Virus record (IMG/VR): IMGVR_UViG_3300029071_000015
Source: a virus
Taxonomy: Duplodnaviria > Heunggongvirae > Uroviricota > Caudoviricetes
Length of the DNA stretch: 17,566 nucleotides
Direction: 5' to 3' (one strand)
Position 1 is the stretch's first letter. Every line of letters starts with the position of its first letter. This document shows positions 989 to 16,246 of this stretch, piece after piece. The translations under genes were made by a program, and so were the position numbers. The notes beneath the pieces were generated by a model. It was not told the origin of the DNA, made no database searches, and was given only the letters and a program-made list of their open reading frames with translations.

Positions 989-1297
989 ATGCGCCACGAT
1001 GACACCACCGTCGCGCAGGAAGCGGCGCATATAAAATGGAAACAGCACGGCGGCCCTTGTGAAATCCCCAATGGTCTGGCGCTTTGCGCAATTCACCATA
1101 AAGCCTTTGATAAAGGATCGATTGGCCTGGATGAAAATATGCGGGTACTGGTCTCGGATGCGGTAAACGGCGGAGGGATCGTTGAGAAACTATTCTGGGA
1201 TTTTGACGGGAAAACTATTGCGTTGCCGCAGGTGCGTAAAAATTACCCTTTTGAGGGGTTTGTGGAGTGGCATCGGAAAGAGGTTTTTAGGGGGTGA
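989..1297 (+). pseudogene. C-terminal HNH-nuclease-domain fragment (truncated remnant)
   Basis: In-frame Met at 989 immediately after the nanS stop; the translation contains an H-N-H-like pattern (AAHIKWKQHGGPCEIPNGLALCAIHHKAFD). The upstream part of ORF 815..1297 overlaps nanS in another frame and is probably not coding, so no N-terminal domain is present. Confidence 0.3.
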
Positions 1298-1304
1298 GGT
1301 TTGC

Positions 1305-1350
1305 TGTAAATAGACCCGTTTTAGTTCCATGCATTTTTTGAGCTCCCGGC
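1305..1350. repeat. Left arm of a 46-bp inverted repeat (45/46 match to the reverse complement of 2521..2566)
   Basis: tgtaaatagacccgttttagttccatgcattttttgagctcccggc; the reverse complement of 2521..2566 is identical except one base (gagCtcc vs gagAtcc). Confidence 0.85.
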
Positions 1351-3603: not shown

Positions 3604-4167
3604 TTAAGCATCCGCTTCAAATCCTCCAAGATCGATTTGCTCTTCGATTTCAGGAGTCCAAAGTAATTCTTCTGGCGTAGCGTTTGACCAAAGCAATTTA
3701 CCATTCTCGATAACATACTTAACCGGTATTTTAGGATTGTTTATGTCTTTACCATCTCTTTCATGCCATTGTCTCTCCCATTTATCATAGAAGACTTCCA
3801 AATCACCGGGCATGAGTAAATAAACTGAACGGATAGTGATATTACTATAAATTGCGAACACCCATGGAACCTGCCTATATTTCGCAATTATTGTTGGATT
3901 CATATGATGGTGAGTTGAAAAACTTTTAGTTAACTCAACATTAACTGATTTTAATTCAAACTCAGTACCAGTGACATCTACTGCATCATTACCTTCTCGC
4001 CCAGGAAGAACTTTAAGACTGAGAAGTAAAAGAACTTGCAGGAGTTTCCCTCCGTTATCTTGGAATATATCATTGATTCCGTGCTTATTAGCTAACCGTT
4101 GATATTCTTCAACCTGAGGCCAAAGCGCAATTAAATTTGACCAATCTTGATGCAACTCAAATTTCAT
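3604..4167 (-). CDS. Type II restriction endonuclease, PvuII-like (PD-(D/E)xK)
   Basis: 187-aa ORF; segments [51 protein letters not shown] and DKWER match my recollection of R.PvuII, including the catalytic D...E-x-K; ATGA overlap with the upstream C gene; divergent from the methyltransferase. Confidence 0.75.
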
Positions 4168-4400
4168 ACCTGATTATTCTCCAACAGGGAACTGGGAGAG
4201 ACGCCAAGGGCTGAAGCAATTCGGTCGATATTATCAATGGAAATATTTCTTTCACATCGCTCTACTGATCCGATGTAAGTTCTATGCAAGCCTGCTAAGT
4301 CAGCCAAGGCTTCTTGAGACAACCCTTGTCTCTCCCTTAACTTTCTGATGTTATGGGCAAAAATCACTCTTGCTCTTGAGGGGTTTATCTTTCGTTCCAT
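4164..4400 (-). CDS. Controller (C) protein of restriction-modification system, XRE-family HTH
   Basis: 78-aa ORF with a helix-turn-helix region ([41 protein letters not shown]) resembling C.PvuII-type controller proteins; sits immediately upstream of and overlaps the endonuclease gene. Confidence 0.8.
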
Positions 4401-4427
4401 TCGCGAGACAATGCAGCCTTGATGACA

Positions 4428-4452
4428 ATAGATCTACAGACTATGAGTAGCA
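4428..4452. promoter_or_regulatory. Putative C-box operator in the divergent M/C-R intergenic region
   Basis: The 55-bp intergenic region contains dyad-symmetric elements (tagatcta; actatgagt, i.e. ACT-N3-AGT) just upstream of the C gene start, where C-protein operators normally lie. Confidence 0.4.
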
Positions 4453-4455
4453 GTT

Positions 4456-5430
4456 ATGACATTTGACAATAAAAAACCTGCGTACAAAACAGATTTGGGT
4501 GCAATGTACATTGCTGACTCGCTTGAAATGCTTAAATCGATGCCAGACAACAGCTTAAATTTAGTGATGACAAGCCCACCTTTCGCATTACAGCGTAAGA
4601 AAGAATATGGTAATCACGATCAAGAACAGTACATCGATTGGTTTTTAAAATTCGGCGAGCTGATTTTTAAAAAGCTAAAAGATGATGGTAGCTTTGTCGT
4701 CGATTTTGGTGGTGCTTACATGAAAGGAGTGCCTGTTAGAAGTGTCTACAACTTCCGGGTTTTGATCAGGATGATTGATGAGGTTGGGTTCCATCTGGCT
4801 GAGGACTTCTATTGGTTTAACCCTTCAAAACTACCAAGTCCTATTGAGTGGGTTAACAAAAGAAAGCTGCGTGTTAAAGATTCTGTTAACACAATTTGGT
4901 GGTTTAGCAAAACCGAATGGCCAAAGTCAGATATAACTAAAGTTCTTGTTCCCTATAGTGATAGGATGAAAAAACTTATTGAAGACCCTAATAAATATTA
5001 TTCCCCCAAAATGCGTCCATCAGGGCATGATATAAGCAGCAGCTTTGGCAAAGATAATGGCGGTGCTATACCTCCAAATTTATTGCAAATTCCCAACTCC
5101 GAATCTAACGGTGGATATTTATCGAGTTGTAAAAAAATTGGCGTTAAGGGGCATCCAGCACGATTCCCATCTAAATTGCCGGAGTTTTTCATTACAATGT
5201 TAACAGAGCCGGGTGATCTTGTTGTAGATATTTTTGGCGGTTCAAATACAACTGGAAGTGTTGCTGAACGATTAAAACGCAAATGGCTTTCATTTGAAAT
5301 ATTACCTGAATATGTAGCCGCATCTGTATTTAGATTTACAGATAAAAATACAAGTCAAGATATACTTCAAGAGATGTATGACACTATATTAAATGGAAAT
5401 ACTCTCGATTTATGCGCCAAAGAGAAATAA
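4456..5430 (+). CDS. DNA methyltransferase, beta-class amino-MTase (likely N4-cytosine, M.PvuII-like)
   Basis: 324-aa ORF; motif IV TSPPF near the N-terminus and motif I FGGSNTTG near the C-terminus (the circularly permuted order typical of beta-class N4C/N6A MTases); divergently arranged to the C-R genes. Confidence 0.8.
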   Translation: MTFDNKKPAYKTDLGAMYIADSLEMLKSMPDNSLNLVMTSPPFALQRKKEYGNHDQEQYIDWFLKFGELIFKKLKDDGSFVVDFGGAYMKGVPVRSVYNFRVLIRMIDEVGFHLAEDFYWFNPSKLPSPIEWVNKRKLRVKDSVNTIWWFSKTEWPKSDITKVLVPYSDRMKKLIEDPNKYYSPKMRPSGHDISSSFGKDNGGAIPPNLLQIPNSESNGGYLSSCKKIGVKGHPARFPSKLPEFFITMLTEPGDLVVDIFGGSNTTGSVAERLKRKWLSFEILPEYVAASVFRFTDKNTSQDILQEMYDTILNGNTLDLCAKEK

Positions 5431-5505
5431 GGTCAAATCGTAGTTAGCTAATTCGTAAAGAAAGCCAGTCATAGAGTCAGATTGGCTTTCTATCAGCATA
5501 AATAA

Positions 5506-6764
5506 TTAAGCATGAAGTTTTGCGTAGTCAAATGGACTAATAGGTTTAATCTTGTTTGCATCAAGATAATCAGCCCACCATTGAACCATTAATCGCCTTT
5601 CATCCAAATGTTCAGGGGTATGAATATAAGCTGCCCTAACACTATTACGCTCAGAATGACTCAACTGACGTTCTATCGCGTCATCACTCCATAGCCCCGA
5701 CTCCCCCAACGCACCACGTGCCATATTCCTAAAACCATGACCACAGACTTCCGTTTTTGTGTTATATCCCATCGCACGCAATGCATTGTTTACCGTATTT
5801 TCACTCATAACCTTAGCTGCGTCATGATCTCCCGGGAAAAGAAGCTCTTTATCACCACTAATCTGCTCAAGCTGTACTAACAACATCATCGCCTGCTGGC
5901 TAAGTGGAACTATATGCTCCTCTTTCATTTTCATGCCGCGATACGAGTAACGCACACCTTTAATTTCTTCACGTTTTGCCGGAATACGCCAAATAGCGTT
6001 ATCAAAATCAAATTCTTTCCAACGAGCAAAACGCAATTCGCTTGAACGAACAAAAGTTAGTAAAGAAAGCTCAACCGCAATTTTCGTCATCATACGACCA
6101 CGATATGCAGCAAGACGCGCCAAGAACTCAGGGAAACGATGTGAGGGTAGCGCCGGATAGTGCCGCATTTTAGATGTCGATAACGCTCCAGCCATATCAC
6201 TTGCAGGATTCGAGTCTATATAATCGTTCTGTACGGCATAGCGCATAATAGTAGTGACACGTTGCTGAAGACGCTGCGCTACATCATGCTTACCACTGGC
6301 ATCAACTTTTTTATCGGAGCTAGAAGATGACTAGTTTTAAGCTGTCGGATATCAGACGAGCCAATATAAGGGAAGATATAAAGCTCTAGATAGCGAAGAA
6401 CGCGCCCCCGATGATCCTCGCTCCAACGTTTGTTGCTGGCATGCCATTCACGGGTAATAGTTTCAAAATTATAAGTACCAGCATTCTCTGCTTGGGCCTC
6501 TTTTCGTACTGCTTTTGGATCTATGCCGTGTGCCAGCAACTTTTTCGCTTCATCCCTTCTCGTTCTAGCTTCAGCAAGCGTCACGGTCGGCCAAACACCA
6601 AAAGCAAGACGATCCTCTTTTTTGTCGGAGGGGCGTCTGTATTTCATACGCCAATATTTAGAGCCTTTGATAGAAACCTCAAGATACAAACCGCCACCAT
6701 CAGCCATTTTGTAGGTTTTGTCTTTTAGCTTTGCGGTCTCGACTTGTCTGGCGTTGAGCTTCAT
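5506..6764 (-). pseudogene. int: P4-family tyrosine integrase, frameshifted (split into 6279..6764 and 5506..6246 ORFs)
   Basis: The two ORFs together align along the intact integrase at 16301..17566 (roughly 85-90% identity); the nucleotide alignment shows a 1-bp deletion near 6270..6290 (ttttttatcgg versus ttttttaatcgg in the intact copy) that breaks the frame. Confidence 0.8.
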
Positions 6765-7461: not shown

Positions 7462-9795
7462 TTATGCCTCTGCGGGGTCGTCGCACTTCGGCAGCCAGTC
7501 GCCGTAGCTTTCCTCTTTCAGCGACAGGTTAGTCTGTATCCCCTGCTTTGTGTGCCGCTTCTCATAATTCAGGCCGTACTCTTTCAGCATCATGGGCAGC
7601 CCCAGCCCGAACATTTTCAGGCTGAGTACGTTCCTGTACCCGTTAGCCTCCATATAGGCCAGATACGCGTGATAGAGATATTTACGGTAATTACGCGGGA
7701 TGATGCTGGCATTCCCCATAAACATCCCGTTGGTCTGCGGGAGCATTTCCAGATAGCCGCAAAAATCAAACGTCGGGTCAGCATCGCGCTTGATGCTGAG
7801 CGCCTCGTCGGAGTTCTGCTGCGACTGGAGCAGTGCGCGCGCTGCCATCGGGTCGCTGAATTTCTGCATAAGCTGGCGCACAATCACGGCCAGCTCACGC
7901 GCAATTTTATCCCTGAGCTGCGGGTCGCGTTCCTCCGGCGCAATCTGCTCCGGGAAGTGGATAATCACCCGGCGGCGCGACACACCGCCGCTGCGGTCGG
8001 TGAAGCGCATGGGGTTATTGTTCACGGCCAGAATCACCGCCGGAATATGTGTTGAGTATGGGTTCTGGTATTTCGGGTCAACTGAGACCGCATCGCCGCC
8101 GGTGATGGCCTTAAGTCCTGCGCCGTCACCGCTCCATTTTTCCTGGTCTGGCAGACGGATTAGCGAGAAGCCAATCAGGGAGGCACGCTTGCGCGGGTCT
8201 TCCAGTGTGTCGATATCGGCCGACGTGGCGTTATCTTCCCCGGCGAGCAGGGTCGCGATTTCGGCCAGAATACTTTTGCCGCTCCCGCCGGGGCCGGTGA
8301 CTTCGAGAAAGAGCTGCCAGTCGTAGCGGTTCGCCAGTACCATAAACAGCGCGGCCAGAATCACGTCGCGTTTTTGTGGATTTTTGCCGGCCGCACGGTC
8401 GAGCCAGCGCCAGAAGTTCGGCGAGTGAGTCTCCAGCGTTTCCCCGTCCACCGGTGGGGTGAAATCCACGTCGCACAGCGTGCGCAGCCAGTGTGATTTA
8501 CTGTGCGGGCTGAACAGGCCGCTCTGGGTATCGAGTACCCCGTTGCGAAAGCCAATCAGACGACGCGCCGGTGTATCCTGCTGCGGAATAATCAGTTTCA
8601 GGGTCTCCACCACCGAGGCAATTTTCCCCGATGAGAACGGGGCGCGCAGACGCTGGAATAAGTCAGCCACATTCCGTGAAAAAGTGGCGGCAGGGATATT
8701 TTTCCAGATGCCGTTTTCATAGCGGGACAGGAGCTGGCCGTTTGCATCCACCGCCAGCGCTTCGCCGTAATGCTCATGCACCCGCAAGGCCTTGTCGCTG
8801 GCGCTCATGGCGGTAAATTCCGCCTCGCTCATGGTATCAAACGGGCTTTGCGCCGGTGGCCGGATAGCGTCATAAATGGCTTTGCGTGTCGCATCCTCAC
8901 CATTCTGCATAAACGCATCATTCCAGTCACCGAACACCGGCGGCAGGGCGACAATGCCCTCACAGGCTTCTGCGGCCGCGGCGGCTTTACTCTGGCCGTC
9001 GCCGTTAAGGTCACGGTCGGCGGCGAGCACAATCTGACAGGCCGGGTGTTTTTGTCGGGCAAGGCTCGCCAGAGAAAGGAGGTTCACGGAGGACAGCGCC
9101 ACCATGACGGTTTCGCCGGTCAGGTGATGCACGGTGAGCGCGGTCGCATAACCCTCCGCTATCCACAGGCGCTTTCCCGCCTGTTTTTTCCCTTCGATGA
9201 TGTGGCACGCTCCTTTTACCGCCCCGCCTTTCAGGGTGCGTTTGAGACCGTCAGAATTAATAAGCTGAACGTTAACCAGCGCCCCGGCATCGTCATACAG
9301 TGGGACAACCATATCACCGGCGCGGAACGTCACACCGCCGGTTTTGTGTGTGGCCGTCAGCATGACACACTCATGACCGGGGAATCCCTTGCGGGTGAGG
9401 TAGGCATTGCCGCTGGCCGGTCGGGTTTTCTCCATGAGCCTGACGGCCAGCGCGGCCGCCGCCTGGCGGTCAACCTCCGTTTCTGCTTCTGCGGCCGCAA
9501 TCACTTCCGGGGCAACCGGCGGCAGGTTGCCGGTCACGGCGTTCACCTTTTGAGCTGCCTCTGACGGATTTACACCGAACACCTTTTCAACCAGCTTAAG
9601 CCCGTCACCTGCGCCACACTGATTGCAAAACCACGTCCCGCGCCCTTCTTTATCATCAAAGCGGAAACGGTCAGAGCCGCCACACACCGGGCAGGACTGA
9701 TGGCGGTTTTTAATCACCTTCACACCCAGCGCAGGGAGAATGTGCGGCCAGTGGCCGCAGGCCTGTTTTACCGTTTCTGTTACGTTCATTTTCAT
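7462..9795 (-). CDS. P4 alpha-like primase-helicase (zinc-binding primase, P-loop NTPase)
   Basis: Long ORF; start chosen at MKMNVTETV with RBS gagggagaaaacaaccATG; N-terminal zinc-finger CPVCGGSDRF...FCNQCG; Walker A GPGGSGKS; size comparable to P4 alpha. Confidence 0.9.
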   Translation of the reverse strand: MKMNVTETVKQACGHWPHILPALGVKVIKNRHQSCPVCGGSDRFRFDDKEGRGTWFCNQCGAGDGLKLVEKVFGVNPSEAAQKVNAVTGNLPPVAPEVIAAAEAETEVDRQAAAALAVRLMEKTRPASGNAYLTRKGFPGHECVMLTATHKTGGVTFRAGDMVVPLYDDAGALVNVQLINSDGLKRTLKGGAVKGACHIIEGKKQAGKRLWIAEGYATALTVHHLTGETVMVALSSVNLLSLASLARQKHPACQIVLAADRDLNGDGQSKAAAAAEACEGIVALPPVFGDWNDAFMQNGEDATRKAIYDAIRPPAQSPFDTMSEAEFTAMSASDKALRVHEHYGEALAVDANGQLLSRYENGIWKNIPAATFSRNVADLFQRLRAPFSSGKIASVVETLKLIIPQQDTPARRLIGFRNGVLDTQSGLFSPHSKSHWLRTLCDVDFTPPVDGETLETHSPNFWRWLDRAAGKNPQKRDVILAALFMVLANRYDWQLFLEVTGPGGSGKSILAEIATLLAGEDNATSADIDTLEDPRKRASLIGFSLIRLPDQEKWSGDGAGLKAITGGDAVSVDPKYQNPYSTHIPAVILAVNNNPMRFTDRSGGVSRRRVIIHFPEQIAPEERDPQLRDKIARELAVIVRQLMQKFSDPMAARALLQSQQNSDEALSIKRDADPTFDFCGYLEMLPQTNGMFMGNASIIPRNYRKYLYHAYLAYMEANGYRNVLSLKMFGLGLPMMLKEYGLNYEKRHTKQGIQTNLSLKEESYGDWLPKCDDPAEA

Positions 9796-9809: not shown

Positions 9810-10130
9810 TCAGTGCAGTACCGGCGCGGTGATATGACGGGCGCAAAGCTCATCCATCACGGCCAGCCCGAGAAAGGACAGCGACGGCGCGGCTTTGAGT
9901 GGTCCGGCTTCCATTAAATCCTCCAGTAGTGCACAGGCAATCTGGCGGCCTTTTTCCTCGCCGTGCTGGCGCAGGTAGAAGCCCTCCAGTTCGGCGGCAA
10001 TAGTGCTTTCCAGCGCGTCGAGGGTGAGGTGTGGATGGCGGTGCTGACGTTCGCACAGGGTCAGCCATGCACAGGCCACGGCGCGACGATACAGCGCGGC
10101 GCGTAATACGGGCGGTAATGGCTTTTTCAT
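9810..10130 (-). CDS. Hypothetical protein, P4-family early-operon gene upstream of primase
   Basis: 106-aa ORF ending 14 nt upstream of the primase start; ATGA overlap with the preceding gene suggests an operon. Confidence 0.5.
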
Positions 10131-10354
10131 ACGTTACCCTCCCCGGTCAGCCAGTGCTGATTGCAGCGTTCTACCACGCCGTCGAGCTGGGCAGTCATGA
10201 GATAAATCACGGAGGTGAGCTGTAACTGCTGCGCCGGGTCACGCCTAACGGTCGCGCAGTCCTGCACCTGCATCAGGTCGCCGACGAGCTGGCCGACATT
10301 GCGCATATGCTCCAGACATTCGAGGTCACGGGCGGTAATGGTGGTGTGTCTCAT
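10127..10354 (-). CDS. Hypothetical small protein (early operon)
   Basis: About 75-aa ORF; start placed at the second ATG, which overlaps the stop of the upstream small ORF (gcATGAgacac). Confidence 0.45.
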
Positions 10355-10545
10355 GCGCACACCTCCGCAACCGGCAGACGGCCAGCGAACGAGAGAAAGT
10401 AATCGCGAACGAGAGAAAGGCGAGCGGCGTGCTCATCACCGGCAACGGTGCGAAGCATACAGATACGGGGTTTACGGTCTGCGCGACGAACGGCGGCAAA
10501 CACAAAGACAAACTGCGGGTGTGACGGGGTGAGGGTCGTAGCCAT
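10351..10545 (-). CDS. Hypothetical small protein (64 aa)
   Basis: Short version of the 183-aa ORF, starting at MATTLTPSH with GGAG about 9 nt upstream; the longer form would overlap the AlpA-like gene and an apparently non-coding region. Confidence 0.3.
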
Positions 10546-10747
10546 AGCGGCAATCTCCAATAAGTAGCGGTTATCGCCACCACAAGAGCTGCAAATCTCA
10601 TGGGTGGTAGCCCGGACAGGGTTTGCAGTACCGGCCTTATTGGAAACCGGCCAGCCCGAAGGCTGCCCCGCCCGGACCACCATTATCTGACAGGAGCCAC
10701 GGTGTAAGCACCACAGCCCGAAAAATAGGTGTGTCTGAGCAACGACA

Positions 10748-10770
10748 TAAAAAAACACGCTCGGCGCGTG
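10748..10770 (-). terminator. Putative intrinsic terminator (minus strand) downstream of the AlpA-like gene
   Basis: 6-bp stem acacgc/gcgtgt with 5-nt loop, followed on the minus strand by a run of 7-8 U. Confidence 0.35.
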
Positions 10771-10898
10771 TTGTGTCGCCAATAAGTTACACGGGCTGCA
10801 AATCCCGGCTGCCGATTTTGCGACAGCGGGAAAACTATACCTGGAAACGGCGAAAAGAAGCAAGCCAGAAAAAGGGGCTGTTTGCTGAACGGTCATCA

Positions 10899-11165
10899 TC
10901 ACGCGTCATAGCCCTGGTTACGTTCGGCAATGCGATCCGCCATCCATGCAGTGATTTCAGACTGCGCCCACGCCACATTTTTTCCGCCGAGGGAGATTTG
11001 TTTCGGGAAGGCTTCCCGGCTGATAAGGTCGTAAATGGTCGAACGGGACAGGCCGCACAGATGCATCACTTCGGGCAGACGGATAAAGCGCTCGTGAACG
11101 GTATCAGAAACCGGCATCAGCGGCGCGGCAGGGGCAGAAGACGGGGAAGAAAAAGCGGTGTGCAT
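10899..11165 (-). CDS. AlpA/Vis-family phage transcriptional regulator (excisionase-like HTH)
   Basis: 88-aa ORF containing [42 protein letters not shown], typical of AlpA-family proteins; RBS gaggtagcccgATG; the true start may be the internal Met (MPVSD). Confidence 0.75.
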
Positions 11166-11294
11166 CGGGCTACCTCATAAAGTCCATACAGTGCCGGTCG
11201 TGTCCGTCCGGCTTCGGGTAACTCCTTATTATGTCTATATTTTTCCTCAGGTCATGTGAGATTTTCGGGGAAACAAACATTGACTTTTCCCTAT

Positions 11295-11331
11295 GGCAAA
11301 CAAAGGCAAACGCTGGCAAACATATGCAAAT
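11295..11331. promoter_or_regulatory. Four 7-bp direct repeats (GGCAAAC x3, TGCAAAT) at exact 10-bp spacing: putative operator array
   Basis: Repeats start at 11295, 11305, 11315 and 11325; one helical turn apart; in the divergent regulatory region between the AlpA-like and sid-like genes. Confidence 0.4.
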
Positions 11332-11339
11332 CACTGCAT

Positions 11340-11540
11340 TACAATGCAGCAATTTCTATTTCTTTTAGTTATATATTTTTTATTTTTAATCGAAATAAAA
11401 TCTAGATGCTATAGCCAGGGCAAAACAGGAGGGTGAACAGTGGTGAACAGTCGGTGAACAGTCAGACCCTCAACTGTTCACCATTTAACTTACTGTATTA
11501 CTTATCTTTTTATTTAAGGTGAACAGTGGTGAATAGTTAT
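11340..11540. promoter_or_regulatory. ori-like region: AT-rich stretch plus cluster of GGTGAACA/TGTTCACC iterons
   Basis: AT-rich 11340..11410; iterons gggtgaacagtggtgaacagtcggtgaacagt...ctgttcacc (11432..11483) and ggtgaacagtggtgaatagt (11517..11538); same octamer as in the crr-like region. Confidence 0.5.
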
Positions 11541-13668: not shown

Positions 13669-14748
13669 ATGAATGTAGGGCATCTCAATTTTTTCAAGGT
13701 TAATAAGTGCGGTTTATACAAGGTAAATGATGACAATACCTATGGTTTAGAACTAAGCGAAACATTTGACCTCATACAGGATTGGGTAGGAACTAAACCT
13801 CTTGCACTCACCATACCATGGGACCCAAAAGAAAAACCCAATAGATCAAAGTGTTATTGTAAAGACATCTACAAAGATGAAAATACTGGTGATTTTTTAA
13901 TCATGTTATGGAAATCTGATACTGATAGTACTGGTTCTTTATTAGGAGCGAGTGAAGACGGTGAAATCGGAAGTTCATCAGTGGTTAAATATACTAATAG
14001 CTACAGAGGGAAAAAAGTCATCTGGGGTCGCCCATGCTTTTATTGGGTTATACCTGAACTTGAAACTATAGTTTCTATTAAATTCGATCATTCTGTTTGT
14101 GACTCTGAACTATTTCAAGATTATGTACACTCATCTATTACTAATAGAGTTAAACATAGCAAAAGAGTTAAAAATAAAACCGAGAAAGGTTATATAAGAT
14201 TATCTAATACTGATGACGAAGATTTATATAAATACATGTACAGATTTGATATGAAGCTCCGAAGCTTAGAAACCACTCATGCTGAGTTAGGTAAATTGAT
14301 ATCAAAAATAACACATATTGTTCGCAGAGAAACCATTATTATAAATCCAAATGACGCACGAGCTGATTGGTTAAAGACTTTTAGCACTCTCGTTCCATTT
14401 GTGTCCGGAAAGAAAAACACCAGAACAAGACAGATTGAAATAAAAGCAGAAGCGAAGCCATCCTTGAAAGAAGTTCAAGAAATAATTGAAAAACATTCTG
14501 CTGAGGATAGAGAAAAACGTCTTTGGGATAATGTGGGATTTGCGACGGACAAGGGCATAACATGGGTGGATAAATATAGAATGCGTGATATTCTCAATGT
14601 CCCTTCCGAAGACTATTCGACATATACCGCTGCATATATCTACGAACACATATCACACAAAAGAAAAGAATTCATTTCCCCTATATTAAAAGAGCTAAAA
14701 GCATTAAAATCTCAATCAAGAATAAAGAAAGCATCTGGAGAGGATTGA
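13669..14748 (+). CDS. Hypothetical protein (cargo gene A, 359 aa, soluble, Lys-rich)
   Basis: Long ORF with RBS aaggaaagagcATG; AT-rich codon usage contrasting with the satellite backbone; no catalytic motif I can recognise; stop directly abuts the next start (TGAATG). Confidence 0.7.
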   Translation: MNVGHLNFFKVNKCGLYKVNDDNTYGLELSETFDLIQDWVGTKPLALTIPWDPKEKPNRSKCYCKDIYKDENTGDFLIMLWKSDTDSTGSLLGASEDGEIGSSSVVKYTNSYRGKKVIWGRPCFYWVIPELETIVSIKFDHSVCDSELFQDYVHSSITNRVKHSKRVKNKTEKGYIRLSNTDDEDLYKYMYRFDMKLRSLETTHAELGKLISKITHIVRRETIIINPNDARADWLKTFSTLVPFVSGKKNTRTRQIEIKAEAKPSLKEVQEIIEKHSAEDREKRLWDNVGFATDKGITWVDKYRMRDILNVPSEDYSTYTAAYIYEHISHKRKEFISPILKELKALKSQSRIKKASGED

Positions 14749-15285
14749 ATGTTAAAAGCTATAGTAGGCCTCGTCAAATACACATGGATATACATAGCAA
14801 TATTCATTATATCGCTATTGGTCATTTTACCATCCGATATTTACTATGTGTATAACGATTTTGCTAACTATTGCACTCTTCTCGTATCAGTTTCTGGAAT
14901 GGTTTTTACTATTATGGGGATTTGGTTAGCGTTTCTTTATCCAAATGCTTTGCAGCGTATTGTTAACCCCAAAACTATAGAAACTGTTGATTTCACCGAA
15001 CAACTGGAAGATACAAAAAGGTTAGAAGCAATAGTTGGAAGTGTTCTAAAATCATCTTTCGTTATGATTACTTTACTTGTTGTATATTTAGTTAAACTAG
15101 TATTTTTCAAGAGTCATCTTTATTTAGAGAGTCAAGAAGTAATAAAAGACATATCTTTAGCATTAATTATTGCCATTTCATACATGCAGATTGAGGCAGT
15201 GATTAGTGTAATACTAGCTAATGTTATGTTTATCAATGATTTACATAATAAGCGAGAGCAAAGAGACATCGACGATCAAGTATGA
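14749..15285 (+). CDS. Hypothetical integral membrane protein (cargo gene B, 178 aa, ~4 TM helices)
   Basis: Four hydrophobic segments (WIYIAIFIISLLVIL, LLVSVSGMVFTIMGIWLAFLY, FVMITLLVVYLVKLVFF, LALIIAISYMQIEAVISVILANVMFI); translationally coupled to gene A. Confidence 0.7.
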   Translation: MLKAIVGLVKYTWIYIAIFIISLLVILPSDIYYVYNDFANYCTLLVSVSGMVFTIMGIWLAFLYPNALQRIVNPKTIETVDFTEQLEDTKRLEAIVGSVLKSSFVMITLLVVYLVKLVFFKSHLYLESQEVIKDISLALIIAISYMQIEAVISVILANVMFINDLHNKREQRDIDDQV

Positions 15286-15292
15286 GGAAAAA

Positions 15293-16246
15293 ATGAAAAA
15301 AAACATACGAGTTATACCTAAAAACATTCATAACAAGTTAAAAAGGCTTGGCAATGCAGTTGTTGCTGGCACTTCCATCGCATTTACAGAAGACCAATTA
15401 AAAAATGGTATACTAGAGCACCTTGGAATATACTTTGATAATGGTGTTAATGCTTATGAGACGTCGGTTATACCCGATCCATTGCAAGGCAAATATTCAT
15501 TCAAAAATGTTTTCGGTGAAGAAATCGTAAGAAAAGACCTTCCAAAAGAAACTCATTACACTGAAATTGAGTCACCTAACTGGGGTGATAGTTCTAACGG
15601 TACGCATACTGTTAGATTACCTCACGAGAAATACCCCAGAGATATTATCCCACCAAGACTCATAGCAATTGAAATTAATCACAAACAGTCTTCGGACAGT
15701 CATTTCATATTTAATTTCAGAGTAACTAGAATTTTAGAAAAAAAATCAACCAAGTTTCATGATGAATTATTATTCGACTTAAATCTTCTTCAAGAAAATA
15801 TTGGGAAGTGTGGGATTGAGAATGCTGATAAACCTATATCGACTTATGCTGACACACTCATAGTATCATGGGACATATTTCCACCAGGTAGTAAAGAGGA
15901 AGTTTTAGCAAGAATCTTTAGAGGGAAAAATATCACTACAGATAAGAAAAGTGTTGCTGAAAACAGATATGACTTCTTTATGAGCCTTGATCCTAAAAAA
16001 ATTGTCACAGGTAATAGTACGTTCAGTAATTATATTGGAGCTATGCTAGAGGACGACCTGGTTGTTTTTGAAAATATAGAATATGGTAATGCAATATATA
16101 TCCTCTATGATAACTGGGATGAAATCAGCAAGCTATCTCGAATCGATTTGTTATCAGGAAGAGCAGGCAATAATTTCGATAGAATAATTCATAGTGGTAA
16201 TTGGAAAGACGAGGTGCGAAAAAAAGTTACTAATGGAAGATTATGA
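15293..16246 (+). CDS. Hypothetical protein (cargo gene C, 317 aa, soluble)
   Basis: Start placed at MKKNIRV with RBS tatgaggaaaaaATG, 7 nt after the gene B stop; the longer listed ORF (from 15221) would overlap gene B; followed by a strong terminator. Confidence 0.65.
   Translation: MKKNIRVIPKNIHNKLKRLGNAVVAGTSIAFTEDQLKNGILEHLGIYFDNGVNAYETSVIPDPLQGKYSFKNVFGEEIVRKDLPKETHYTEIESPNWGDSSNGTHTVRLPHEKYPRDIIPPRLIAIEINHKQSSDSHFIFNFRVTRILEKKSTKFHDELLFDLNLLQENIGKCGIENADKPISTYADTLIVSWDIFPPGSKEEVLARIFRGKNITTDKKSVAENRYDFFMSLDPKKIVTGNSTFSNYIGAMLEDDLVVFENIEYGNAIYILYDNWDEISKLSRIDLLSGRAGNNFDRIIHSGNWKDEVRKKVTNGRL

What the first reader, a model, noticed from the sequence alone, without database searches (positions are those of the whole stretch)
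10351..10898. Small-ORF and non-coding stretch between the AlpA-like gene and the primase operon that may correspond to an immunity region
Seen in sequence: about 350 bp (10546..10898) with no convincing ORF, a minus-strand hairpin plus U-run (10748..10770), then two or three short coupled ORFs leading into the primase gene. Established knowledge: in P4 the corresponding interval encodes the processed CI immunity RNA and its target sites, which cause premature termination. Inference: an analogous RNA-based immunity or antitermination element could reside here, but I cannot identify CI-like sequence by eye.
Basis: inference. Interest (0 to 1): 0.35.

Follow-up and report, generated by a model that had tools for sequence, protein, structure and literature searches.

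The report
P4-type antisense RNA immunity region
This stretch is the RNA-based immunity switch of a P4-like satellite prophage, built like the one in phage P4 but with different recognition sequences; it is a known kind of element, not a new one.

Summary
The interval between the AlpA/Vis gene and the primase operon is a homolog of the phage P4 immunity region, about 72% identical to P4 with the same order of parts.

On the minus strand:
- A PLE-like promoter at 10863..10834.
- A C4/CI-type antisense RNA at 10687..10600 (Rfam RF01695, 85.9 bits, gathering score 45).
- Target boxes b2 and a2, with a2 covering the Shine-Dalgarno sequence of a kil/Icd-like gene.

Across 44 related elements the two recognition boxes of the RNA pair with both target sets in 96.5-100% of cases, with many compensatory changes. 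The window's boxes (CCAAUAAG, CUGCAAA) differ from P4's (CCUGUGAA, UUCUCAC), so I predict it is heteroimmune to P4.

The "non-coding" stretch is spanned by a conserved 183-codon frame at 10902..10351. This is the P4 eta homolog: it overlaps the vis stop and has kil nested inside it.

The system is known and already curated. Interest is low.

The parts
10899..11165 (-). vis / AlpA-like gene (88 aa). Its stop TGA (10901..10899) overlaps the GTG start of the eta-like frame.
   Evidence: Pfam Phage_AlpA 3e-20. Same length and position as P4 ORF88. Overlap read from the sequence.
11228..11255 (-). Candidate late promoter (PLL-like) upstream of vis: ATGACC, 16 nt, CATAAT.
   Evidence: Promoter scan. 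The -10 region and the downstream leader are conserved with P4. Assignment as PLL is inferred, not tested.
10351..10902 (-). eta-like frame of 183 codons with kil nested in its last 64 codons. It spans the promoter, leader, CI RNA and target sites.
   Evidence: ORF list. 54% identity to the P4 eta frame. Frame open in nearly all homologs while the other frames have 2-8 stops. Pfam Phage_ASH 1.3e-28 and phrog_6928 5e-74. No third-position excess in its first 357 nt. P4 eta model as summarised in PMC10111431.
10834..10863 (-). PLE-like constitutive promoter inside eta: -35 TTGCTT (10863..10858), 18-nt spacer, -10 TATAGT (10839..10834). Predicted start near G10827.
   Evidence: Aligns with the '-10 consensus' annotated in P4 record X02534. 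Both hexamers are conserved in the relatives that reach this far. It falls below the threshold of the simple scanner, so function is inferred from homology.
10750..10827 (-). IsrK-like leader RNA (the seqA region of P4): two hairpins, boxes b1 and a1, and terminator t1.
   Evidence: Rfam RF01394, 72 bits against a gathering score of 50. RF03163 c4-a1b1, 45.5 bits against 46.7, at 10840..10788. Hairpins paired in 99.7-100% of cells.
10796..10802 (-). Box b1 (UUUGCAG), in the loop of leader hairpin 2; complementary to b'.
   Evidence: helix b1/b' is 100% paired, with 6 of 7 pairs changed on both sides.
10779..10786 (-). Box a1 (CUUAUUGG), single-stranded, just upstream of t1; complementary to a'.
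   Evidence: helix a1/a' is 100% paired, with 6 of 8 pairs changed on both sides.
10747..10772 (-). Intrinsic terminator, positional homolog of P4 t1 and the 3' end of the IsrK model (AACACGC-GCCGA-GCGUGUU followed by U7).
   Evidence: Terminator scan. Fold. Conserved, with a GC/CG swap at one pair in 11 of 43 sequences.
10600..10687 (-). CI / C4-family antisense RNA: a 17-bp stalk, a minor hairpin, and a major hairpin presenting a'. The mature RNA is predicted to be about 10682..10601, ending in CCCA.
   Evidence: Rfam RF01695, 85.9 bits against 45. MFE -52 kcal/mol, z = -4.7. All three helices are 100% paired in 43 distinct sequences, with compensatory changes. The ends are inferred from the fold and from the RNase P substrate rule.
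10636..10643 (-). Box a' (CCAAUAAG) in the loop of the major hairpin of the CI RNA.
10622..10628 (-). Box b' (CUGCAAA) in the single-stranded joint between the major hairpin and the stalk.
10589..10595 (-). Box b2 (UUUGCAG) in the loop of a small hairpin (GAG...CUC) just downstream of the CI RNA.
   Evidence: 100% paired with b'. The 3-bp stem co-varies (GC to AU in 13 sequences).
10556..10564 (-). Box a2 (CUUAUUGGA). Its 3' end overlaps the kil Shine-Dalgarno GGAG (10558..10555), 9 nt before ATG 10545.
   Evidence: Coordinates read.
10567..10583 (-). Hairpin immediately before a2 (GUGGUGGC-GAUAACC-GC..., U-rich tail). Possible counterpart of the atypical P4 terminator t4.
   Evidence: Terminator-like hit. 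The stem is only 69% paired across relatives, so this assignment is weak and unverified.
10351..10545 (-). kil-like gene (64 aa, Icd-like), the first gene translated from PLE transcripts.
   Evidence: 84% identity to P4 Kil. NCBIfam phage_ICD_like 6e-21. Strong third-position diversity excess.
10127..10354 (-). 75-aa ORF coupled to kil by an ATGA overlap; function unknown.
   Evidence: phrog_10110 6e-47. No Pfam or NCBIfam hit.
9810..10130 (-). DUF5375 gene (106 aa), homolog of P4 ORF106, coupled by an ATGA overlap.
   Evidence: Pfam DUF5375 6e-65. P4 annotation.
7462..9795 (-). alpha-type primase-helicase, the replication gene that the immunity system keeps silent.
   Evidence: Pfam Zn_Ribbon_Prim, Toprim_3, D5_N and Pox_D5. 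The start at 9795 is inferred from the E. coli KL53 homolog.

Best explanation
The region is the immunity and lysis-lysogeny control region of a P4-like satellite prophage. It is built like P4's and most likely works the same way.

1. A constitutive promoter (PLE-like, -10 at 10839..10834) lies inside the eta-like frame and transcribes the leader.
2. Readthrough transcripts are processed into an antisense RNA of about 80 nt (CI/C4 type, 10687..10600). In P4 the processing enzymes are RNase P and PNPase.
3. Two exposed boxes of this RNA, a' (CCAAUAAG) and b' (CUGCAAA), pair with b1/a1 in the leader and with b2/a2 downstream.
4. Pairing at a1/b1 favours termination at the intrinsic terminator t1 (10772..10747). 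This gives a short IsrK-like leader RNA and autoregulates the level of CI RNA.
5. Pairing at b2/a2 covers the kil ribosome-binding site. The kil region is then not translated, and transcription stops before the 75-aa ORF, the DUF5375 gene and the primase gene. The prophage stays quiescent and a superinfecting satellite with the same boxes is shut off.
6. When the upstream late promoter fires, ribosomes coupled from vis translate the eta frame straight through the leader, the CI RNA and seqC. This overrides termination.

Shown here: homology, RNA structure, the box/target complementarities and their co-variation, conservation of the frame, and the layout. Inferred from P4 work: processing, termination, immunity and the role of eta translation.

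Because both boxes differ from P4's, the element is predicted to be heteroimmune to P4.
For: - Rfam C4 85.9 bits (gathering score 45) and isrK 72 bits (gathering score 50) on the minus strand. P4 gives the same hits at the homologous sites.
- 71.6% identity to P4 over 93% of the 951-nt region (window 10300..11250), with a colinear alignment.
- The CI cloverleaf folds at -52 kcal/mol, z = -4.7. It is 100% paired in 43 distinct relatives, with compensatory changes.
- The a1/a' and b1/b' helices are 100% paired over 645 cells, with 12 of 15 pairs changed on both sides. Controls with the partner slid by 1-3 columns give 36-48%. The a'/a2 and b'/b2 helices are 96.5% paired.
- Cognate duplex energies are -21.8 and -23.6 kcal/mol, against -11.6 and -11.7 with P4's targets.
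- a2 overlaps the kil Shine-Dalgarno sequence.
- The terminator is present and conserved.
- The eta frame is conserved and overlaps the vis stop.
- Neighbouring genes are those of P4: alpha, DUF5375, AlpA, Ogr/Delta, Psu and an integrase by Pfam, and a sid-like gene by PHROG.
- Literature: PMC3632133 equates IsrK-like with seqA and C4 with CI RNA in P4-like prophages. PMC4825925 summarises CI, seqA and seqC. PMC10111431 summarises the eta/kil/PLE logic. PMC5499578 lists CI RNA as an RNase P substrate.
Against: - There are no expression data for this element, so promoter activity, processing and termination are all inferred.
- The PLE-like promoter fails the simple consensus scan (8 of 12 matches, 18-nt spacer).
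- The c4-a1b1 model scores 45.5, just under its gathering score of 46.7. P4 itself scores 44.1.
- Equilibrium folding gives the t1 hairpin a probability of about 0.99 whether or not a1/b1 are blocked. The CI dependence of t1 reported for P4 is therefore not reproduced by thermodynamics and would have to be kinetic.
- The spacer between t1 and the CI RNA is 60 nt shorter than in P4.
Confidence: 0.9

Rival explanations
1. The stretch is simply the N-terminal part of a 183-aa protein (the 'Ash' / 'Icd-like' protein, as PGAP and Pfam annotate it) and has no RNA function.
For: - The frame is open and conserved.
- Pfam Phage_ASH 1.3e-28 and phrog_6928 5e-74 match it.
- RefSeq annotates the homolog in E. 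coli KL53 as one CDS and annotates no ncRNA there.
Against: - The first 357 nt show no third-position excess (for example 0.37/0.36/0.39 in the spacer and 0.15/0.19/0.18 in the CI RNA), whereas the kil part shows 0.07/0.065/0.287.
- Substitutions are compensatory for RNA pairing, both within the RNA and between the RNA and its targets.
- Covariance models score far above their thresholds.
- An intrinsic terminator sits inside the frame.
- In P4 the immunity factor is the RNA.
Confidence: 0.03
2. The control is P1-like only. The antisense RNA acts solely by blocking kil/icd translation at a2/b2, followed by Rho-dependent polarity. The leader boxes a1/b1 and t1 serve only as a decoy (sponge) that titrates CI RNA, or as a trans-acting IsrK-type activator RNA as in Gifsy-1. 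They would not form a CI-stimulated terminator.
For: - a2 overlaps the Shine-Dalgarno sequence.
- The t1 hairpin forms with a probability of about 0.99 irrespective of a1/b1 occupancy in equilibrium folding.
- In Gifsy-1 the short IsrK RNA acts in trans on the long isoform to open the ribosome-binding site (PMC4825925).
- TraDIS data suggest that the IsrK-like part has its own role in lysogen maintenance (PMC3632133).
Against: - As I recall it (Briani et al. 2000, cited but not readable here), CI RNA enhanced termination at P4 t1 in vitro without host factors.
- The a1 box abuts an invariant GGCG that can pair with the 5' arm of t1 in the nascent chain. This is a plausible kinetic antiterminator that CI pairing would remove.
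Confidence: 0.07

Closest known systems
Phage P4 immunity region (PLE, seqA, t1, cI/CI RNA, seqC, kil nested in eta)
   Same: - Same order and spacing of all parts.
- 71.6% DNA identity over 93% of the 951-nt region.
- Same Rfam hits.
- Kil is 84% identical; the eta frame is 54% identical and coupled to vis.
- Same flanking genes.
   Different: - Both recognition boxes and all four targets differ: a' is CCAAUAAG here and CCUGUGAA in P4; b' is CUGCAAA here and UUCUCAC in P4.
- The spacer between t1 and the CI RNA is 60 nt shorter.
- The eta frame starts with GTG rather than ATG.
- There are no epsilon or ORF151 homologs; a 75-aa ORF stands in their place.
C4 antisense RNA of phages P1/P7 (immI operon: c4, icd, ant), Rfam RF01695
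   Same: - Same RNA family and fold.
- Two boxes, a' and b', pairing with a1/b1 upstream and a2/b2 downstream.
- The downstream target covers the ribosome-binding site of an Icd-like gene.
- Both are RNase P substrates in the characterised members.
   Different: - Here the operon under control encodes replication functions (a primase) rather than an antirepressor.
- The RNA lies inside a translated frame (eta) that is coupled to an upstream gene.
IsrK / STnc1160 locus of Salmonella Gifsy-1 and the c4-like loci of lambdoid phages (Stx phages, Klebsiella phage Kpn74)
   Same: - The leader matches Rfam isrK (72 bits) and ends at an intrinsic terminator.
- The same layout (terminator, C4-type RNA, b2, then a2 next to the next gene's start) is seen in Kpn74 and an Stx1 phage, each with its own boxes.
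   Different: - Those loci control antirepressor genes in full-size temperate phages.
- The trans-activating role shown for IsrK has not been shown for P4-type leaders.

Membership tests
C4 / P4 CI antisense RNA (Rfam RF01695) | Covariance-model score at or above the curated gathering score | tested here: met
   85.9 bits against 45, E = 4e-16, full-length match to model positions 1-87.
C4 / P4 CI antisense RNA (Rfam RF01695) | Cloverleaf-like fold: a long stalk, a minor hairpin and a major hairpin | tested here: met
   The MFE structure has this shape, -52 kcal/mol, z = -4.7. The stalk and both hairpins are 100% paired in 43 distinct relatives, with 6 pairs changed on both sides.
C4 / P4 CI antisense RNA (Rfam RF01695) | Two exposed boxes complementary to one target set upstream and one downstream on the same transcript | tested here: met
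   a' with a1 and a2, and b' with b1 and b2, are exact in the window. Co-variation over 44 elements gives 100% and 96.5% paired cells.
C4 / P4 CI antisense RNA (Rfam RF01695) | The downstream target overlaps the ribosome-binding site of the first gene (icd/kil type) | tested here: met
   a2 (10564..10556) overlaps GGAG (10558..10555), 9 nt before ATG 10545. The gene matches NF033153 phage_ICD_like.
C4 / P4 CI antisense RNA (Rfam RF01695) | Matured from the leader by RNase P (5' end) and trimmed to a 3' CCA-like end | not testable with these tools
   The stalk is followed by CCCA (10604..10601), compatible with the rule. No processing data are available.
C4 / P4 CI antisense RNA (Rfam RF01695) | Confers superinfection immunity by causing premature termination or translational block | not testable with these tools
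   Needs a genetic or biochemical assay.
isrK / P4 seqA leader (Rfam RF01394) | Covariance-model score at or above the gathering score, ending in an intrinsic terminator | tested here: met
   72 bits against 50. Terminator hairpin plus U7.
c4-a1b1 target motif (Rfam RF03163) | Covariance-model score at or above the gathering score | tested here: inconclusive
   45.5 bits against 46.7, E = 5e-10. P4 itself scores 44.1. The threshold is missed by about 1 bit, while the functional boxes are demonstrably present.
P4-like satellite prophage | Core gene set: integrase, alpha primase-helicase, DUF5375/ORF106, vis (AlpA), delta (Ogr/Delta), psu, sid-like, and ori iterons | tested here: met
   Pfam and PHROG hits. 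Six GGTGAACAGT iterons at 11432..11538. Gene order as in P4.
P4 eta/kil nested genes | A long frame starting at the vis stop, in frame with kil, containing PLE and the CI RNA | tested here: met
   GTGA overlap at 10902..10899 and a 183-codon frame. The frame is conserved in relatives. 54% identity to the P4 frame. The model is described in PMC10111431. Translation itself was not tested.

The most novel reading that the evidence does not exclude
Two readings go beyond what I found stated in the papers I could read.

1. The two recognition boxes may behave as independently assorting specificity modules.
- Among 45 P4-like elements I counted roughly 10-13 a' types and 6 b' types in 24 combinations, always with matched a1/a2 and b1/b2.
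- Genomes carrying two or three elements never share both boxes.
- The six sites are interleaved along the transcript (b1, a1 ... a', b' ... b2 ... a2). Changing one module therefore needs three coordinated changes. G-U wobble intermediates are visible at a1 in five elements.
- This would amount to a combinatorial immunity code. The window carries one of its types, shared with elements in Enterobacter chuandaensis and Raoultella planticola and with L032, from a metagenome-assembled genome labelled only Proteobacteria.

2. The 119 eta-specific codons may be kept open only so that ribosomes can pass, with no selection on the amino acids. If so, Pfam Phage_ASH would model a translated regulatory RNA rather than a protein domain.
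Probability: 0.4. Interest if true: 0.4.

Novelty: new member of a known kind. Interest (0 to 1): 0.2.

Why it matters
- **Annotation.** Genome pipelines mark this stretch as one 'Icd-like' CDS and show no RNA. The working parts are in fact a promoter, a terminator, an antisense RNA and four target boxes, all laid inside a frame that is read only from the late promoter.
- **Biology.** The box sequences predict which satellites exclude each other. This element should not be immune to P4 itself.
- **Beyond that.** It is a well-understood system and adds only one more specificity type to it.

Tried and rejected
- **The 183-aa CDS as an artefact.** I first took the CDS annotated by PGAP and the Pfam Phage_ASH hit for an over-extended ORF laid over RNA. 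I dropped this after finding that the frame is open in nearly all relatives and starts at the vis stop, and after reading the published eta model. What remains is that its upstream part shows no protein-level selection.
- **CI pairing and t1 folding.** I tested whether CI pairing at a1/b1 changes formation of the t1 hairpin at equilibrium. It does not: the probability is about 0.99 either way. A nascent-chain alternative helix (UUGGCG with CGCCGA) exists, but it is built from invariant bases, so co-variation cannot test it.
- **The hairpin before a2.** The hairpin at 10583..10567 as a counterpart of P4 t4 has only weak support: it is 69% paired across relatives, and I could not check P4's t4 coordinates.
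- **Primary papers.** Sabbattini 1995, Forti 1999 and Briani 2000 could not be read: the look-ups of the first two failed and Briani 2000 has no PMC id in the reference lists I saw. Details about t1, t4, timm and the 79-nt length of the CI RNA rest on my recollection and on secondary summaries.
- **tRNA search.** No tRNA was found in the window, so the attachment site could not be placed.
- **Source organism.** No complete E. coli genome carries this exact sequence; the best match is 96.9%. The closest immunity region is in Enterobacter chuandaensis at 98.5%.

Full report
**What is at the coordinates**

On the minus strand the window carries the following:
- An AlpA/Vis-like gene (ORF 11165..10899).
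- A 353-nt interval.
- A 64-aa gene (10545..10351, Icd-like).
- A 75-aa ORF (10354..10127).
- A DUF5375 gene (10130..9810).
- A 777-aa primase-helicase gene (9795..7462).

The first two junctions between the short ORFs are ATGA overlaps.

The statement that the interval has no ORF is not correct. A 183-codon frame (10902..10351) runs through it, in frame with the 64-aa gene. Its GTG start overlaps the vis stop (GTGA) and is followed by ATG ATG.

**Identity of the region**

Rfam covariance models at their curated thresholds give exactly two hits in the 17.6-kb window, both inside the finding and both on the minus strand:
- C4 antisense RNA (RF01695) at 10687..10600, 85.9 bits against a gathering score of 45.
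- isrK (RF01394) at 10827..10750, 72 bits against 50.

A permissive scan adds c4-a1b1 (RF03163) at 10840..10788. It scores 45.5 bits, one bit under its threshold.

The 951-nt stretch 10300..11250 is 71.6% identical to phage P4 over 93% of its length, and the two align colinearly. P4 gives the same three Rfam hits at the homologous positions.

The neighbours are the P4 gene set. Pfam identifies alpha, DUF5375/ORF106, vis, delta (Ogr/Delta), psu and an integrase, and a PHROG hit identifies a sid-like gene. Six P4-type ori iterons (GGTGAACAGT) lie at 11432..11538.

Barquist et al. (PMC3632133) state that in P4-like prophages the IsrK-like and C4-like RNAs are what the P4 literature calls seqA and CI RNA. 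Hershko-Shalev et al. (PMC4825925) say the same.

**Anatomy in the window (minus strand)**

- PLE-like promoter: TTGCTT (10863..10858), 18 nt, TATAGT (10839..10834). The TATAGT aligns with the -10 annotated in P4 record X02534.
- Leader from about G10827: hairpin 1, then hairpin 2 with box b1 UUUGCAG (10802..10796) in its loop, then single-stranded box a1 CUUAUUGG (10786..10779).
- Intrinsic terminator at 10772..10747. By position this is P4 t1.
- A 59-nt spacer, 60 nt shorter than in P4.
- The CI-type RNA: a 17-bp stalk, a minor hairpin, and a major hairpin whose loop carries a' CCAAUAAG (10643..10636). Box b' CUGCAAA (10628..10622) lies in the joint between the major hairpin and the stalk. 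The stalk is followed by CCCA.
- Downstream: b2 UUUGCAG (10595..10589) in the loop of a small hairpin, and a2 CUUAUUGGA (10564..10556). The 3' end of a2 overlaps the kil Shine-Dalgarno GGAG, 9 nt before the ATG.

**More than chance**

The CI RNA folds at -52 kcal/mol, with z = -4.7 against shuffles.

I collected 44 related loci from enterobacterial genomes with the Kil protein as query. I aligned 42 of them with the window and P4, giving 44 rows.
- The CI stalk and both hairpins are paired in 100% of cells in 43 distinct sequences. Two sequences have completely exchanged the minor hairpin stem.
- The intermolecular helices a1/a' and b1/b' are paired in 100% of 645 cells. Twelve of 15 pairs are changed on both sides. 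Sliding the partner by 1-3 columns gives 36-48%.
- The helices a'/a2 and b'/b2 are paired in 96.5% of 688 cells. The residual mismatches come from a one-column alignment offset in one subgroup.
- The t1 core stem is always paired, with a GC/CG swap at one position in 11 sequences.

**Specificity**

P4 has a' CCUGUGAA and b' UUCUCAC. The window has CCAAUAAG and CUGCAAA, and all four targets are changed to match. Crude duplex energies favour the cognate targets (-21.8 and -23.6 kcal/mol) over P4's (-11.6 and -11.7). The element is therefore predicted to be heteroimmune to P4.

Its box combination also occurs in Enterobacter chuandaensis (L006, 98.5% identical over the region), Raoultella planticola (L016) and L032, from a metagenome-assembled genome labelled only Proteobacteria.

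Across 45 elements I counted roughly 10-13 a' types and 6 b' types in 24 combinations.

**The frame over the RNA**

The 183-codon frame is open from the vis stop in 34 of 40 relatives that reach it, in most of them starting at an ATGA overlap. Four more open from a start further upstream, inside vis. The other two frames carry 2-8 stops each. The frame is 54% identical to the corresponding P4 frame.

It corresponds to P4 eta, with kil nested in it. As summarised in PMC10111431 (citing Forti et al. 1999):
- PLE lies inside eta.
- PLE transcripts are terminated through the CI and seqA interactions.
- Kil is the truncated product made on readthrough.
[quoted passage not shown] My codon-position test fits that picture. 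The kil part shows diversity of 0.07/0.065/0.287 at codon positions 1/2/3. The 357 nt upstream show no third-position excess. The frame is kept, but the amino acids are not visibly selected. Pfam Phage_ASH (residues 22-131) and phrog_6928 model exactly this stretch.

RefSeq annotates the E. coli KL53 homolog as one 'Icd-like' CDS and annotates no RNA.

**Mechanism**

The best-supported mechanism is the P4 one, given in the Best explanation section. The parts shown here are structure, complementarity, co-variation, layout and frame conservation. The parts inferred from P4 are promoter activity, RNase P/PNPase processing (for the substrate class), termination at t1 and further downstream, and the override by eta translation.

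One check did not support a simple version. At equilibrium the t1 hairpin forms with a probability of about 0.99 whether or not a1/b1 are blocked. If CI stimulates t1 here, as I recall was reported for P4, the effect must be kinetic. A nascent helix between the 3' end of a1 plus GGCG and the 5' arm of t1 is a candidate, but it is invariant and so cannot be tested by comparison.

**Comparison and verdict**

The same layout, each with its own boxes, occurs upstream of antirepressor genes in Klebsiella phage Kpn74 and an Stx1 phage. This matches the known P1/P7 C4 and Gifsy-1 IsrK systems.

The element is a further member of a curated, experimentally characterised family, so interest is low.

The two points that may go beyond what I found in the literature available to me are the apparent free assortment of a' and b' types and the frame-only conservation of the eta-specific codons.

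Noticed in passing
window 10546..10902 (minus strand): The eta-specific part of the frame has no third-codon-position excess of diversity, yet stays free of stops in nearly all relatives. Pfam PF10554 (Phage_ASH) and several PHROG 'transcriptional regulator' families match this translated regulatory RNA stretch. RefSeq annotates the whole frame as one 'Icd-like' CDS without any ncRNA.
   Followed up: partly
L004-L047 (alignment A3, columns 78-101, 282-303, 330-370): Box types a' (roughly 10-13) and b' (6) occur in 24 combinations among 45 P4-like elements, although the six sites are interleaved along the transcript. Five elements have a G-U wobble at a1. Genomes with two or three elements (for example Enterobacter chuandaensis L004/L006/L012) never share both boxes.
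   Followed up: partly
window 13669..16246 (+): Cargo genes lie between psu and the integrase, at the position of the P4 gop/beta/cII variable region. The first two ORFs match the candidate defence system PDC-M18 (A: 1.5e-38, B: 1e-15). The third ORF (341 aa) matches nothing.
   Followed up: partly
window 11294..11538: Replication-origin-like repeats: six GGTGAACAGT iterons (one inverted) at 11432..11538, and three TGGCAAAC-type repeats at 10-nt spacing at 11294..11330. They lie between vis and the sid-like gene, as in P4 ori.
   Followed up: partly
window 3604..6764: Left of the primase gene there is a second integrase split into two ORFs (6764..6279 and 6246..5506), probably a pseudogene. 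Beside it is a PvuII-like restriction-modification system with a small HTH controller protein (endonuclease 4167..3604, HTH 4400..4164, methylase 4456..5430). This suggests a second, decayed island in tandem.
   Followed up: no
L048 (Klebsiella phage Kpn74) about 1150..1330; L049 (Stx1 phage) about 1150..1330: Full-size temperate phages carry the same layout (terminator, C4-type RNA, b2, a2) with their own box sequences, upstream of antirepressor genes. In the Stx1 record the RNA is buried inside an annotated 'antirepressor Ant' CDS.
   Followed up: partly
window 10127..10354 (minus strand): A 75-aa ORF (phrog_10110, unknown function) occupies the place where P4 has epsilon and ORF151. The window has no epsilon (helper derepression) homolog.
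   Followed up: no
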